Shown piece by piece: positions 11,501 through 17,031 of a DNA stretch of 17,031 nucleotides (the stretch's first letter is position 1; every line of letters starts with the position of its first letter). The position numbers were made by a program. The stretch is from Nitrospinota bacterium (lineage in GTDB: Bacteria > UBA8248), in NCBI GenBank assembly GCA_030754595.1, contig JASLZZ010000018.1, positions 1-17,031 of the forward strand, written 5' to 3'.

Positions 11501-14500
11501 TTGCGGATGGCCTCGAGCTCTCGGGTGATGTCGTCCCGCCGGGCGTAGCGCAGATGAATCTCGTCGATGCGCCCCACGGCGCGGACGACGCGGCCCCTGA
11601 GCTCGGCCTCGGTGGCTTCGAACTGCCGCCGGAGGGTGGCGCCGACCTGCTCGACCCGGCCCCGGAGCTCGTTGTAGATGATCCGGCCCAGCACCCCGGC
11701 GAGGGTGAGGGCCAGGGCGAGTGCGCCCCAGGAGGCAACGCCCCAAGCGGCGGCGCCCACCCAGGGGGCGGCGCCCTCAAAATCAGGTGTCCAGCCGGAA
11801 AGCATTTTTTCTCCCGGTTCGGCCTTGCAGGCCAGCGAGGGCATGACATGCCGGGGCGCGGCCCCAAAAATCATCCCTCAAAAAATCGCCCTTCGAATTT
11901 ACTGGGAAGAGAGGCGCCTTCCCCGGAGGGTGGGCTTCCGAATGGGGTGGGCTCATCCCTGGAGGGTGGACTCCCGAATGGGGAGCACTTATCCCTCCAC
12001 CGCACGAGAATGTAGGCGATTCGGGCGGAATCGCCCCCACCGGAAATGCCGGGAACTTCGCGCTGGCTCCGCCAGCCGTGGTGGGCTCCCAAGCGGGAGC
12101 CTCCGGCCGGTTGGTGGGCTCCCGGCCCGGTGAGTCCCCCGGCGGGGGACTCTCTGGTATCGTGTCCGGAGAATTTTGGAGTGAAGGATTTTGAGAGAAA
12201 ATGGCTGAAAGGCGCGCGGGGCATGACTAAAAAGACGGCGGCGGGTTTTCTGATGGCGGGCGGAGCTGCGCTGCTCGGAGCGGTCCTCCTCTGGACAACG
12301 GCGGCGGCGCACGGCTCGGGCGAGATCGAGATTTTCGCCTACCTGCTCGAGGAGCCGGGCTTTCTCAGGCTGACGGCGGGAATCCTGGGCGCGCTGATTT
12401 TCCTGCTGGGCGCTTTCATCGTCTGGCAGAGCGATCTGGTGTGGGGGGAGATGTCGGCGGCGGAGAAATCAGAAGAGGGGGGGGCGAAAGTCTCGCGGGC
12501 CCGGATGATGGCCCCCGGCGCGGCGTTCGCCCTCACCGGCGCGGCGATCATCCTCGCGGCGATATTCATCCTGCCCGACCGGGTGACTTCCAATGACCAC
12601 CCCGGCGGCGGCCATCAAAGCGGCGGGCCATCACGCGGAGCAAAAGCAAAAAGCGCCCTGACCCCGGAGGCGGGCCGCTAATCGCCGTGGATGGCGATCT
12701 CGCGAAGCCCGAAATGACCGCCCGAGTTTTCGAGCAAAAACCCGTTGAAAACGCCGCGCTGCCCCAGGTCCGATGCGCGCAGGAGTTCCTGGCCGTCGAG
12801 CAGGACGCTCATCTCGCCGTTTCGCTCGCGAATCCATTCGATGACGTAGCTTCGCCCTTCCCGCGCCTCCACCGGCTTCTTGTAGGCCGCGATGAGCTTC
12901 TCGCCCCGCCGGGTGGCACTGCGGATCGCCAGGCCGTTCCCCTCTCCCGGCGAGAAGGCCAGGCGGTAGCCGCGATCGCGGCGCCTACCGTCGTAGGACC
13001 CGAAAACGAGGCGGCCCTTCGGCCCCCGGAAGGCGATTTCCATCCTGATGGTGAAGGCGTTCGATATTTTTCGGGGCAGGAAGATCTCGGCCCGATCGGA
13101 AGCGCCCGGGAGGGCGCCCCGGCCCTTTCCGCGAAGGGAGCGCTCCAGAAGCTCTCCGAGGAGGGCGGAGGCGAAATCTCCCTCGGCCTGCTACTCGGCG
13201 GGTGGTGATTCGCCCCGCACTTCCACTATGGAGGTGAGTCCCATCCGCCGGGTGACGTCGAATCGGCCCGAGGCGACCTGCCAGCCCGGAGAGCGGGTGT
13301 AGTCGCCGTCCCGAAAATCGTCGCGGGCGACCTCCCTGCCCGGAGCCCTCCGGTAGCGGCGGAGAATGGCGCGAAGTTCGTCAAGGAACCAGCGATCCGC
13401 GGCGCGGCGGCGCTCGCCCTCTCGAATCAGGGCCCGAAGGCGCCCGGTGAGATCGGCCTCGGCGGCGCGGGCCGGACCGTGGGCGGCCAGTAGGGTGATC
13501 GTTATCAAGACGGCGGCGGTAATGCGCATCGGCACCTCGCTGCGGCGGGTTGTCCAGAAGCGAACCGGCCCTTATAACCCTCTCGCCTCAACTCCCCGGA
13601 GGGAAAACAGGCGCATCCGCTTCTAGTACTCGAACACGGTGGGGCCTTCCACCGCCTCGGCCAGCGCGCTGGCGGCGGCGCGGGCGGCGCCGAGGCGCCA
13701 TTCGCGCTCGGCCTCGGGCTCCCGCGAGGGGTCGCCGAAGGGGTGATGGAAGTGGCCGTCCCGGGTGTTGACGATGCGGTTCGCGCCGATGTCGCGCGCG
13801 ACGTTCGGCAGGCAGGTCACCACGACGGTGGGAATTCCCTCCCGCTCGAGAGCTCTGGCCAGCGCAGCCCCGCTGCGCGTGCCCGTCCCTCACGTGGCGG
13901 GGAGAACGGCCCCCGTGACGCCGGCGGCCTTGAGTTCCCCGGCCCAGGCGCGGCCGATCTCGTCCATCGTCTCGAAGGCGCCGCCGTTTCCGCAGGTGCT
14001 CAGAAAATCGTCGTGGAGCGCGGCGATCTCGCCCTCGCTCGCAAGGCGGCGGAAGGCGTCGACGGCGAGCATGCGGTCGGGCTCCTCGTTGACGAAAAGG
14101 GTGTTGAAGCCGCCGTGGATCGAGATGAAGCTGCCGCCCGGCAGGTCGTCTTTTCCGGCGAAGGAGTATTTGGCCCAGGCCCCGTTGCGCGATCCGGCGA
14201 AGCGGTCGGGGTTGTCGGGGGGGACCATGCCGCCCTCGGAGACGACGGCGATGACCGCGCTCTTGAGGTCGGCGACGGGCGCGGGAGGGGATATCTTCTC
14301 CAGCGCGGGGACCTCGAGCTCGGTCTCGTAGGGCTCGCCCTTGATCTTCTTGAGGACGAGATCGACGGCGCGCTGGGAGGTCGGAACCTCGGAAATTTCG
14401 TTGTAGCGGATCCCGCGCGGGAGATAGCCCTCCTCGGCGGCGGCCCCGACGGCCTCGCCCCGGGCGAGCTTGAGGCCGAGGCGGAGGGCGGCCTCGAAGG

Positions 14501-17031
14501 CTTCCTCCATCCCCGCGGCGGTTTCGGCGGCGGGGACGGTGTAGACGGTCCGCCCGGCGGCGGCGACGCCCGGATTCTCGGGATGCATCGCGGTGACGGC
14601 GGGAATCCCCGCTTCGGCGGCGGCCCGGCAGAGGGCGGCGCAGGCGAGCCCGTAGCGCCCGGCGTTGAAGGCGGGGCCCGCGACGATCAGGCCGGGGGCG
14701 AAGGCCTTGATCCGCTCCATCGCCTCGGCGGCGCAGCGCTCCTCGTTTTCGGCGAAAAGGCCGTCGCCGCAGTAGACCGTCCCCGCGACCTCGCCCTCCC
14801 CGCCCAGGATTTTATCGATGAGCAGACCGGGGCCCATGGGACCCTCCTTGGAGGAGAGGGGGTGATCGCTCTTCTCCTCGCCGCCGACGCCGGCGAAAAA
14901 CTGGTTGATGTAGTGCACGACCCTGATGTTTCCGCTCATGACGCTTCCTCCGCTATTTGCTTTCCGGTTTCCGTGGCCGGGGCCTGAAGCCCCGCCAAAA
15001 CCGGTTGAGTATGATTACAAATCACCTGGAGCCGCCGCGAATCCGATCGAGCCCGGCCCGCCCGAACCAGTCCGAACGAACCAGTCCGAGCTTCCGCGGC
15101 CTAGTAGGCCTTTCCGATCATGCGGTTCAACTCCATCGCCCATTCGTTGGCATAGTAATCGCTGTCGGCCATCGTTAAGACCTCCTTGGCGTCCGTTTCC
15201 CTGCCGCCGTAGAGATTGACGACCCGCGAGCCGATCACCCGGTCGACGGCCGGGGCCTCGATCCGGTCGCCCTGCATGCCCTTGCTCACGATCGCGTCGG
15301 CCTCGGGGACATGGAAGACGAGCGGGAACTCGCCGGTCCCGGGCCGGCCGACCTCGTAGATGATGGGAACGGCCTTGACGCCCATCTGCTCGAGCGCCTG
15401 GACGGTGAGCCAGTAGTCCACCGTCGAGTTTCCTCCGCCCTCGAAGGAGAGAACGGCGCCGTCGGCGTCGAGGAGCCTGGCGATCTTGGCAACGTAGTGG
15501 GCCGAGCGCTCCTTTAAGGCCTGGTTGTCCCGGTGGCCGCGCGTGATGATCGTCCCCGCGAAGTTCAGATCGACGCCGTGGCGGCGGTAGAGCTCGTAGG
15601 CGAGCGGCATGTTGCAGTGAAGATAGGTGGGCACCTTCTGCTGGGTCTTGTAGTTGGCCCCCACGACGGCGCCGTCGAACATTTCGTTCGGGTGGATGGG
15701 CGTGGGAAGCGAGTCGTCCAGATCCTTGCCGTAGAGGAAGGTCTGGACCATCGACGCCTGGTGCATGACCTGATCGACGAAGACGAGGCGCGGAAGGGCG
15801 GGGTCCACCTCGCCCAGATCGAATACCTCGAGCCGGACGGGCTCGAGCCGCGCCGTGGACTCTGCCAACCTGGAAGCCAGCCGGAGGGTGGCGAGGCGCA
15901 CCGCATCGTCGTGCGCCTCGTTCGAGGCGCCTTCGAGCGGCTCGAACCGCGCGACGAGGTTCACCGTCTCGGAATTCGTGCAATACCTTCTGCCGGGGCC
16001 GATCATGTCGATGATCCCCTCGCGGTAGGTCATGATTCCCGTCATGGGCCCCAGGAACCAGGTCGAGCTGATCACGCACATCCCGGACAGCTTGTGGGTC
16101 CTCCCCTCGCCCGCGGTCTTCGCCGGGCCGAGGAAGCCCGGAAACGCGCACGAGCGCCCGCTGACCTTGTAGAGGGGCTCAACGGCGTCGAGGACATTCG
16201 TGATGCGCACCGAGTCGCCCGGCATGGCGGCGTGGAAGCTAACGTCCTTCACATCGCCTCCCGCCATCGCCACCCGGCGGAGGTCGGCGGCGTCCACCGT
16301 GAGAACCTCGTCCCGGTAGGCGAACCGGTCCCCCAGCACTACCTCCGAGACCGGAAAAATCCCCATTTCCAGGCGCATCCGCTCCGCTCCTCCCTTCCTC
16401 AGCTCGCCGCGCGCAACTCGGCCAGATCGCTTTCGATCCGCGGCAGGTCGAGCACCATCTCCATCATCTGGAGCTTTTCGGCGTAAATGTCCTCGGGAAC
16501 ATGGTTCCGCACCCTCTCCTCGAGGATGTGGTACACGGGGAGTCCCAACGAGACTCCCGCCAAGGGCCCGGCCCAGCTGGGGTCCCCGGTCGTCAGCGTT
16601 TCGGCGGCGAGCCGAAGGCCTTCGCCGGGCATCCCAAGAACCACCACCAGATTATCCGCACCGACCTCATCAGCGATTTTCTTGATGGCGGCCTGGTTTT
16701 CCAGGTCCATGGCGCCTGCGGAGGTTCAGACAAAACACTCCGTCTTCTGGAAAACGACCTCCGCTCCCGCCGCCTCCATGCATTCGGCGATGGCCGGGCC
16801 CGGAACACCGTCCCGCTCGCCCAGCGCGATCACCTTTTTCCCTTTAAACATCAAAACCCTCCCGAACAATTTCGAATGAAAACAGACTATAGGGAACCTC
16901 TAAAAACCGCTTAACTTCCCCCGATTTTGTGTTATCGCAGCATTTTAGCCACAATTCATACCCATTTTCCATCTTATCCTCGGCCATCGGAACTCCGAAG
17001 AGCCTCCCGATGGCCAATTTTCCTCATGCGC

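What a model noticed while it worked through the whole genome (the two positions that open the first line are those of the whole stretch)
13623..16851. Glycine/sarcosine reductase system without GrdD: grdC-grdA-grdE-grdB operon and no acetyl-phosphate branch
The genome encodes GrdA, two GrdB/GrdE pairs (C18 and C66:19782-22387) and GrdC (C71:2825-4261) but no GrdD and no acetate kinase. The lack of GrdD is phylum-wide, so the reductase cannot end in acetyl phosphate by the textbook route. GrdC keeps a FabH-like F-C-A-A-P cysteine and may release the acetyl group alone, for example to CoA (inference).
Evidence so far: GrdC (NF040746) passes its cut-off in 34 of 51 phylum genomes; GrdD (NF040747) in 0 of 51, best E 8.7e-9; the weak own hit lies in plsX. 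Positive control: the same search finds GrdD at E 3.5e-165 right behind grdC on a Photobacterium replicon. In 10 of 10 relative loci grdC is followed directly by grdA and grdE, with no gap for grdD; FCAAP kept in 9 of 10 printed. Acetate kinase: 0 of 5 genomes, four of them single-contig, control rings in 9 of 14. Paper searches: 0 for glycine reductase plus Tectomicrobia; the 7 listings of call 161 concern other taxa (listings only; passages of one read, call 168).
(Added by a program. Inside this text positions count along the whole contig: contig position 1 is position 1 of the stretch shown here. "Call 12" and the like, gene names such as g00115 and contig names such as C1 are that model's own, and its searches are not shown. 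The text may have been shortened before it was handed on; [...] marks where a part breaks off. The agent that wrote the report below was given it as the finding of a first reader that could run no searches.)

Follow-up and report, generated by a model that had tools for sequence, protein, structure and literature searches.

The report
Selenium reductase lacking its phosphate subunit
This marine bacterium carries a widespread, unstudied form of the selenium-dependent glycine/betaine reductase that lacks the subunit that makes acetyl phosphate; its remaining subunit is rebuilt in a way that suggests it hands the acetyl group straight to coenzyme A, which has not been tested.

Summary
Observation confirmed. 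The window holds grdA(Sec)-grdE-grdB(Sec); grdC was cut off by an IS5. GrdC passes its cut-off in 34 of 51 phylum genomes, GrdD in 0 of 51, acetate kinase and phosphotransacetylase in 1 of 51 each. Three corrections. (1) The lack is not phylum-specific: 41 of 50 outside genomes reached through GrdC loci lack GrdD, cultured Bacillaceae among them. (2) The FCAAP cysteine is in all 99 GrdC rows, so it says nothing about GrdD loss. (3) 'Glycine/sarcosine' is unsupported: both own GrdE/GrdB pairs lack the pyruvoyl cysteines and CxxC. New evidence: GrdD-less GrdC lacks the C-terminal helix of GrdD-paired GrdC and carries five basic residues found in 0 of 23 paired rows. Four of them map, by topology only, to the loops that bind CoA in FabH. 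GrdC models as a thiolase-fold homodimer. Best reading (0.55): GrdC alone releases acetyl-CoA, CoA replacing GrdD's tethered cysteine domain. Rivals: acetate, direct phosphorolysis, a borrowed carrier. No ligand pose or biochemistry. The scan noted the GrdD-less type before on other DNA (16 notes listed); my paper searches found no description. New variant of a known kind.

The parts
13623..14939 (-). grdB-type selenoprotein B beta subunit, 438 aa; Sec motif A-T-U-G-T-G-T-R-S (no CxxC; Ala where others have Ser two before Sec)
   Evidence: (TIGR01918 over cut-off; TIGR01917, GrdF, GrdH below)
13890..13892 (-). in-frame TGA read as selenocysteine in grdB; a hairpin follows but is not better than shuffles (z -1.43)
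   Evidence: (TGA at this place in all relatives listed)
15101..16378 (-). grdE/grdI-type protein B alpha subunit, 425 aa, without the two cysteines of the pyruvoyl cleavage site
   Evidence: 35% identical to both GrdE-type and betaine GrdI-type references
16399..16851 (-). grdA selenoprotein A, 150 aa, CxxU motif
   Evidence: NF040748 over cut-off
16726..16728 (-). in-frame TGA read as selenocysteine in grdA
   Evidence: TGA in 43 of 43 grdA rows picked up
16888..16891 (.). TATA target duplication; the same four bases stand between the grdC stop and the IS left end on C71
   Evidence: relative L053 has grdC and grdA contiguous; a contig of run X4 spans 14977-16941 across the junction

Best explanation
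A GrdD-independent Grd reductase that ends in acetyl-CoA. Protein B (GrdB/E type) attacks an X-CH2-COO- substrate with its selenocysteine and expels X (here probably an onium-type or other good leaving group, not a Schiff-base amine; substrate unknown). The carboxymethyl group passes to Sec of GrdA (known for the family, inferred here). A homodimeric thiolase-fold GrdC cleaves the C-Se bond and takes the C2 unit as acetyl-Cys260 (inferred). In the textbook enzyme the acetyl group moves to a cysteine on a small tethered C-terminal domain of GrdD and then to phosphate in GrdD's PlsX-like domain. Here GrdD and the helix that probably docks it are absent, and a basic patch (R20, K24, R27, R230', K296, with Y231') binds CoA, whose thiol takes the acetyl group as in FabH and thiolases (inferred). 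Thioredoxin reductase encoded elsewhere re-reduces GrdA (inferred). The result is activated acetate without ATP input and without substrate-level phosphorylation.
For: SHOWN: GrdD 0 of 51, AckA 1 of 51, Pta 1 of 51, so acetyl phosphate has no useful sink in 50 of 51 genomes. GrdB and GrdC are both present or both absent in 49 of 51. No stand-alone GrdD cysteine domain in the genome or in the fetched GrdD-less loci; no other conserved neighbour in 81 loci besides thioredoxin and its reductase in some outside loci. GrdD-paired GrdC has a 42-49 residue tail, ending in an amphipathic helix in 22 of 23 rows; GrdD-less rows end 9-20 residues after the same point (exceptions named in the report). That helix resembles GrdD's N-terminal helix (hhalign 78%, E 1.8e-5), and the natural GrdC-GrdD fusion L101 has neither. 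Positions 20, 24, 27, 230, 296 are Arg/Lys in at least 90% of both GrdD-less sets (35 and 41 rows) and in 0 of 23 paired rows; no acidic position behaves so. Six further loci with the paired signature all have grdD behind grdC (6 of 6). AF2 model pLDDT 92, thiolase fold, Z about 21, rmsd 3.8-5.4 over 261-285 residues; Cys260 aligns with FabH Cys112 and K296 lies in the loop that bears FabH Arg151. Homodimer model 0.92 against a best control of 0.00 (mark reached by 20 of 30 solved homodimers and 1 of 23 single chains; contacts agree at least 91%, pLDDT at least 89; may pass by likeness to FabH-type dimers); residues 23, 27, 224-238, 289-295, 428 are at the interface. GrdD model: N-helix, PlsX-like core (Z 22.0, rmsd 2.9, 245 aligned), low-confidence linker, small domain with the invariant Cys at a hairpin tip. 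GrdA is less acidic in the phylum set than in paired systems (-12.7 against -17.3), so the patch is not matched by acidic gains in GrdA. FROM PAPERS: FabH binds CoA with Thr28, Trp32, Arg36, Arg151 (PMC4606726, passages).
Against: No CoA pose was returned (one search does not score or report ligands) and I had no coordinates, so 'the five residues form one CoA pocket' rests on secondary-structure order and interface lists. All signature changes fall on one branch of the tree: one evolutionary event, not many independent ones. L106 (Dehalococcoidia MAG, 1.9 Mb) has a short tail and no GrdD match but only 1 of the 5 basic residues. 28 of 41 outside GrdD-less genomes have acetate kinase, so acetyl phosphate could be used there. 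The own genome has acylphosphatase and acetyl-CoA synthetase, so acetate or acetyl phosphate are not dead ends. Recalled, not read: recombinant GrdC alone was reported inactive in arsenolysis of acetyl phosphate (Kohlstock 2001; not held). No CoA-using gene is conserved next to the operon in my loci. My GrdD-paired set is mostly Clostridia.
Confidence: 0.55

Rival explanations
1. GrdC hydrolyses its acetyl thioester (or protonates the C2 unit) to free acetate. The system is an electron sink or a way to cleave or detoxify a carboxymethyl compound and win the leaving group, as proline reductase works without an acyl product; acetyl-CoA synthetase re-activates acetate.
For: Needs no acceptor. acsA over cut-off in the own genome. 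D-proline reductase is a family precedent without substrate-level phosphorylation (PMC10298544, passages).
Against: Does not explain five newly conserved basic residues and Tyr231. Wastes a thioester in organisms such as Deferrimicrobium-type Deltaproteobacteria that keep canonical B subunits.
Confidence: 0.17
2. GrdC itself binds inorganic phosphate in the basic patch and makes acetyl phosphate without GrdD.
For: Basic residues can bind phosphate. 28 of 41 outside GrdD-less genomes have acetate kinase; G008 has AckA and Pta.
Against: 50 of 51 phylum genomes have neither AckA nor Pta, yet the signature is kept in 32 of 35 phylum rows in full and 3 of 35 at four of five positions. Five basic residues and an aromatic fit a nucleotide better (inference).
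Confidence: 0.1
3. A borrowed partner replaces GrdD: holo-ACP as thiol carrier with or without PlsX, or an unrelated protein encoded elsewhere.
For: GrdD's core is PlsX-like; weak PlsX-type hits occur in 48 of 51 genomes. FabH-type enzymes bind acidic ACP through basic residues (recalled).
Against: Own PlsX sits in front of fabH and has neither the N-terminal helix nor the GMGCTG domain; such hits also occur in genomes without GrdC. GrdC has lost the docking helix. No conserved unlinked candidate was seen, but I did not run a genome-wide co-occurrence screen.
Confidence: 0.1
4. The C2 unit on Cys260 is not released as acetyl but used in a Claisen-type condensation or acetyl transfer to another small acceptor, or the system runs in a non-catabolic role (redox or stress defence); in this strain the IS may have silenced it.
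For: Top fold matches include condensing enzymes and acyltransferases (OleA, PhlABC, type III PKS). IS in the spacer.
Against: Cys260, Glu373, Asn376 and His429 are the same as in canonical GrdC, so the core chemistry is probably unchanged. All four genes are intact; RNA-library contigs cover parts of grdA, grdE and grdB (weak).
Confidence: 0.08

Closest known systems
Clostridial glycine reductase GrdA / GrdB-GrdE / GrdC-GrdD with TrxA/TrxB (Peptoclostridium acidaminophilum, Acetoanaerobium, C. difficile)
   Same: Two selenoproteins (GrdA CxxU, GrdB), GrdE-type partner, GrdC over the NF040746 cut-off with the same Cys260/Glu373/Asn376/His429.
   Different: No GrdD; GrdC lacks the tail helix and has five new basic residues; GrdE lacks the pyruvoyl cysteines; GrdB lacks CxxC; no trx genes in the operon; no AckA or Pta.
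Betaine reductase GrdH/GrdI (reference here: Enterococcus gilvus pCR1A cluster)
   Same: Alpha subunit without pyruvoyl cysteines (stated for GrdI in PMC10838667). The GrdD-less Bacillaceae systems are 59-65% identical to this alpha subunit and several sit by a BCCT transporter.
   Different: The window's alpha subunit is only 35% identical and the C66 one 30%; GrdH score 347 against a cut-off of 775; the reference keeps UxxCxxC and GrdD.
Fluoroacetate reductase FarB/FarE of Synergistota
   Same: FarB lacks CxxC and FarE lacks the two cysteines (PMC10838667), as here.
   Different: FarE model only 120 bits against 675; no rSAM or antiporter gene next to the window's genes; FarEB is predicted there to feed the common GrdA and protein C.
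FabH / thiolase-superfamily acyl-CoA enzymes
   Same: Fold, homodimer model, nucleophilic Cys at the Cys112 position, a His at the C-terminal catalytic loop.
   Different: 11-18% identity; an insertion of about 170 residues after strand 1; invariant Glu373 where FabH has its catalytic His (my reading by motif order, not a superposition); CoA use untested.

Membership tests
Grd-type reductase complex (any substrate) | Selenoprotein A with CxxU | tested here: met
Grd-type reductase complex (any substrate) | Protein B: Sec-containing beta subunit plus GrdE-type alpha subunit | tested here: met
Grd-type reductase complex (any substrate) | Sec machinery (SelA, SelD, tRNA-Sec); selB not searched | tested here: met
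Canonical acetyl-phosphate-forming Grd reductase | Protein C beta subunit GrdC | tested here: met
   582 bits against 450
Canonical acetyl-phosphate-forming Grd reductase | Protein C alpha subunit GrdD with the GMGCTG cysteine | tested here: not met
   controls. Own bin 96.9% complete; single-contig relatives agree
Canonical acetyl-phosphate-forming Grd reductase | Acetate kinase for ATP formation | tested here: not met
   0 in own genome, 1 of 51 in phylum; control rings in 9 of 14
Canonical acetyl-phosphate-forming Grd reductase | Thioredoxin reductase as electron donor | tested here: inconclusive
   trxB over cut-off on C94, unlinked; coupling not testable
Glycine or sarcosine reductase (GrdB/E, GrdF/G) | Two cysteines of the proprotein cleavage site in the alpha subunit | tested here: not met
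   absent in both own proteins and 43 of 43 phylum rows; present in 4 of 4 paired and 9 of 33 outside GrdD-less rows
Glycine or sarcosine reductase (GrdB/E, GrdF/G) | UxxCxxC in the beta subunit; equivalog cut-offs | tested here: not met
   no Cys in either own protein; 24 of 24 paired rows have it; 378/602, 399/800, 241/780
Betaine reductase GrdH/GrdI | GrdH cut-off, high identity to GrdI, linked BCCT transporter | tested here: not met
   no BCCT-type gene seen among the window ORFs scanned
Fluoroacetate reductase FarEB | FarE cut-off and far operon context | tested here: not met
   (120/675)
Thiolase superfamily | Thiolase fold with Cys nucleophile, homodimer | tested here: met
   (models, not solved structures)
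Thiolase superfamily | Binds CoA and transfers acyl groups to it | not testable with these tools
   one search returned no ligand pose; only sequence-signature inference

The most novel reading that the evidence does not exclude
Short GrdC is a self-sufficient carboxymethyl-selenoprotein:CoA reductive acetyltransferase. The GrdD-less, acetyl-CoA-forming system is the older and taxonomically wider form, and the textbook ATP-yielding reductase is a derived branch that bolted on a PlsX-like domain with a built-in cysteine arm in place of CoA. It would give respiring marine and soil bacteria an ATP-free route from betaine-like, haloacetate-like or glycine substrates to acetyl-CoA, and would place the C-Se cleavage step in GrdC.
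Probability: 0.3. Interest if true: 0.88.

Novelty: new variant of a known kind. Interest (0 to 1): 0.72.

Why it matters
How protein C turns a carboxymethyl selenoether into an acetyl thioester is still described as unresolved (PMC10298544, passages), and GrdC has no solved structure. A one-subunit protein C isolates that step, and it exists in cultured Bacillaceae isolates, so the test is simple. If the product is acetyl-CoA, genome annotations that read grdC as acetyl phosphate and ATP formation are wrong for many lineages, and a diagnostic is at hand (short tail, GSK and RY motifs). It would also add an oxygen-independent cleavage route for betaine-like compounds in marine bacteria.

Tried and rejected
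SECIS-like hairpins after both TGA codons were not better than shuffles (z -1.43, -0.38); Sec rests on conserved TGA and the machinery. FCAAP cysteine as a marker of GrdD loss: rejected. GrdD lost by incomplete assembly: rejected (single-contig genomes; 18 of 18 control). Stand-alone GrdD cysteine domain: none (best own E 0.41 on a 31-residue frame). A conserved replacement gene nearby: none (69 neighbours annotated, not all). Basic patch as GrdA-docking compensation: not supported, but only 3 outside GrdD-less GrdA rows were picked up. Acetate-kinase loss as a general partner of GrdD loss: rejected. CoA pose from the complex job: not reported. The careful tree did not finish; the quick tree has only a midpoint root and I ran no AU test, so the order of events is open. 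RNA evidence: short contigs in two RNA libraries, one also on a neighbouring gene, no silent control; not proof of expression. The GrdD Cys359 paper is not held. Paper searches (listings only) showed no description of a GrdD-less system; one search gave 0 papers; none of the 30 listed of 81 held both a reductase term and a lineage term. Subscription journals and supplements were not seen and may hold such a remark.
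Full report
1. What is in the window. On the minus strand lie grdA (16399-16851), a grdE-type gene (15101-16378) and a grdB-type gene (13623-14939); grdA and grdB each have one in-frame TGA at the family's Sec position. The genome has tRNA-Sec, selA and selD, one grdA, a second grdE/grdB pair on C66 and one grdC on C71. Upstream of grdA the window ends in a multicopy IS. 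In relative L053 (95-97% DNA identity) grdC and grdA are contiguous; in the own bin the grdC stop is followed by TATA and the IS left end on C71, and the IS end on C18 is followed by the same TATA and the rest of the spacer. So the operon is most likely grdC-[IS]-grdA-grdE-grdB; that C71 runs on into other genes is probably a join through another IS copy (the two IS ends are 93% identical), though a true rearrangement is not excluded. A contig of another study's run crosses the grdA-IS junction (X4).

2. GrdD is absent. Own genome: best NF040747 hit E 4.5e-5, inside the gene in front of fabH, read as plsX. My own profiles of 24 GrdD sequences and of their C-terminal cysteine domain, run without filters over six frames, found nothing more. 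Phylum: GrdC over cut-off 34 of 51, GrdD 0 of 51; GrdB and GrdC matches agree in 49 of 51 genomes; acetate kinase and PTA/PTB 1 of 51 each, both in G008. Control: in a clostridial class sample 18 of 200 scored genomes have GrdC and the same 18 have GrdD (one genome not scored).

3. It is not a phylum trait. A scan of 185,579 species genomes with own GrdC gave 61 loci, 58 outside the phylum set (pattern-seeded, so biased to relatives of the query). I searched the genomes of 50 of the 58 (six were second loci of one genome, two dropped for the limit): 9 of 50 have GrdD, 41 do not. The 41 include cultured Bacillaceae and Ammoniphilus, Deferrimicrobium-type Deltaproteobacteria, Desulfobacteraceae, Rokubacteria, Acidimicrobiia and Dehalococcoidia; many are incomplete MAGs. 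Three of four weak Bacillaceae hits were inspected and are plsX beside fabD. In an even sample of the family around G060 only 4 of 201 have GrdC, and three of these are the GrdD-paired type, so the short type is sporadic there. Acetate kinase is in 8 of 9 paired and 28 of 41 GrdD-less genomes: its loss is a trait of this phylum, not of the enzyme type.

4. GrdC is rebuilt. I aligned 99 distinct GrdC rows: 35 phylum, 41 other GrdD-less (one from an unsearched genome), 23 paired. Counting from a conserved Asp-Gly near the end, paired rows have 42-49 residues, ending in an amphipathic helix in 22 of 23; the 23rd is the GrdC-GrdD fusion L101, which runs into GrdD's first strand with neither this helix nor GrdD's N-terminal helix. 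GrdD-less rows have 9-20; exceptions are L072 (66, non-helical run-on), L060 (frameshifted) and two rows cut by locus ends. The tail resembles GrdD's N-terminal helix (hhalign 78%, E 1.8e-5). I infer a docking pair. Cys260, Glu373 and Lys292 are invariant in all three sets, Asn376 and His429 nearly so, so the FCAAP cysteine is no marker. Five positions (20, 24, 27, 230, 296) are Arg/Lys in at least 90% of both GrdD-less sets and in none of 23 paired rows; Tyr231 goes with them (1 of 23 paired rows has it); no acidic position does; two positions are basic and two acidic only in paired rows. All 120 listed best homologues carry R-Y at 230-231 and 119 a short tail. Out of sample, six more loci with the paired signature all have grdD directly behind (one has a split grdC). 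Against: L106 has a short tail, no GrdD match and only one of the five residues.

5. Tree. Quick IQ-TREE of 75 rows (22 near-redundant phylum rows and two broken rows left out): the 23 paired rows are one side of a branch (SH-aLRT 100), and with a midpoint root they nest among GrdD-less rows. The signature is therefore one event; the root is for drawing only, so ancestry is a hypothesis.

6. Structure. AF2 on 114 GrdD-less sequences: pLDDT 92, pTM 0.94; thiolase fold, top Z 20-21 for type III PKS, OleA, SpoVAD and FabH, rmsd 3.8-5.4 over 261-285 residues; no solved GrdC. Cys260 aligns with FabH Cys112, and K296 lies in a short insertion in the loop that bears FabH Arg151. R20, K24 and R27 sit in the two helices right after strand 1, the segment that in FabH carries Thr28, Trp32 and Arg36; these residues and Arg151 bind CoA (PMC4606726, passages). 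This mapping is by order of elements, not by superposition. Two copies of GrdC with CoA riding along scored 0.92 against a best control of 0.00; the mark was reached by 20 of 30 solved homodimers and 1 of 23 single chains; runs agree in at least 91% of contacts, pLDDT at least 89; the pass may come from likeness to solved thiolase-fold dimers. Residues 23, 27, 224-238, 247-262, 289-295 and 428 are at the interface, which is compatible with R230/Y231 of one subunit meeting the 20-27 and 292-296 segments of the other, but these pairs were not printed and the ligand was not reported. A GrdD model (22 sequences, pLDDT 84.5) shows an N-helix, a PlsX-like core (Z 22.0, rmsd 2.9, 245 aligned), a low-confidence linker and a small domain with the invariant Cys355 between two strands. 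I read it as a tethered thiol arm; that this Cys is the acetyl carrier (Cys359 of the P. acidaminophilum protein) is recalled from Kohlstock 2001, which is not held. PMC9908766 (passages) states only that GrdC and GrdD form the acetyl-phosphate-forming protein C.

7. Substrate. Both own alpha subunits lack the two cysteines of the pyruvoyl site, as do 43 of 43 phylum rows (partial duplicates included); 4 of 4 paired and 9 of 33 outside GrdD-less rows keep them. Both own beta subunits lack CxxC; it is kept in 24 of 24 paired, 28 of 41 outside and 2 of 14 phylum rows (two false hits dropped). The same two losses mark FarB/FarE, and the alpha loss marks betaine GrdI (PMC10838667, parts 1-2 of 4 read). 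Bacillaceae GrdD-less systems look like betaine reductases (59-65% to the alpha subunit beside Enterococcus grdH, BCCT next door); Deferrimicrobium-type ones keep glycine/sarcosine motifs. The window's subunit is 35% identical to either type. So short GrdC serves several kinds of protein B, and the window's substrate is unknown; a compound with a good leaving group (betaine-like or sulfonium, then haloacetate or thioether) is my guess. Glycine is unlikely but not excluded, since the pyruvoyl group's role is itself debated.

8. Mechanism and odds. Shown: parts, absences, signatures, models. Known for the family: B to A carboxymethyl transfer and an acetyl thioester on protein C (PMC10298544, PMC13188914, passages; PMC3091704 passages, added nothing on GrdD). 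Inferred: acetyl-Cys260 on GrdC, release to CoA (0.55); hydrolysis to acetate (0.17); direct phosphorolysis (0.10); borrowed ACP/PlsX or unknown partner (0.10); other use or silent copy (0.08). GrdA of the phylum set is less acidic than paired GrdA and gains no acidic position, which argues against the patch being a GrdA dock (29, 11 and 3 rows).

9. Novelty. It works like a Grd reductase up to protein C and fails membership of the acetyl-phosphate-forming, glycine, sarcosine, betaine and fluoroacetate types. Nine paper searches (listings only) showed no description; subscription journals and supplements were not seen. This scan has noted GrdD-less systems before on other genomes (16 notes listed, unchecked); I had reached that reading before looking (note). 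A word search for the CoA-pocket and docking-helix idea returned nothing. One note reports a linked beta-keto acid cleavage enzyme, which uses acetyl-CoA (recalled); I did not check it. Verdict: real, new variant of a known kind, mechanism plausible but untested; interest 0.72.

Noticed in passing
G000:C109:5236-6231 (+) (L152:1737-2732): A stand-alone PrdB/GrdB-family ORF with an in-frame TGA in V-U-P-L-C (UxxC), probably a third selenoprotein of this family; no GrdE-type partner seen next to it.
   Followed up: partly
G000:C66:19782-22387: The second grdE/grdB pair is closest to Rokubacteria and Deltaproteobacteria alpha subunits (37-39%) rather than to the window's pair (27%), so probably another substrate and origin.
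   Followed up: partly
L101:7995-10550 and L104:3-1772: Natural GrdC-GrdD fusion proteins (Defluviitaleaceae, Rectinemataceae); L101 lacks both docking helices.
   Followed up: partly
L106 (Dehalococcoidia MAG): Short-tailed GrdC with an intermediate signature, drawn next to the GrdD-paired branch on a long branch; no GrdD match in a 1.9 Mb genome.
   Followed up: partly
L037 (G008:C7) and L145: The only phylum genome with acetate kinase and Pta; its GrdB keeps CxxC, yet it has no GrdD and its GrdC has the short-type signature.
   Followed up: partly
L039/L047 (G036, G033 second copies): A second grdA-grdC-grdE-grdB operon followed by TctABC tricarboxylate-transporter genes and preceded by an IclR regulator; Desulfobacula L058 also has TctABC and L075 a TRAP system: hints at carboxylate substrates such as N- or S-carboxymethyl acids.
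   Followed up: no
window 548-1945 (+): 465-aa diadenylate cyclase (CdaA/DisA_N-like domain at 61-295, below equivalog cut-offs) with a long C-terminal part.
   Followed up: no
window 2976-3974, 5638-6942, 7085-8008, 9640-10536: F420-type LLM oxidoreductase, ammonium transporter, alpha/beta hydrolase and 3-hydroxyisobutyrate dehydrogenase; not conserved beside grd genes in relatives.
   Followed up: no
G000:C77 plsX (L001:940-2190): Own PlsX has a C-terminal extension without cysteine compared with Bacillaceae PlsX.
   Followed up: no
G000, many contig ends: The IS has about 30 partial or whole matches, mostly at contig ends, which explains much of the fragmentation.
   Followed up: no
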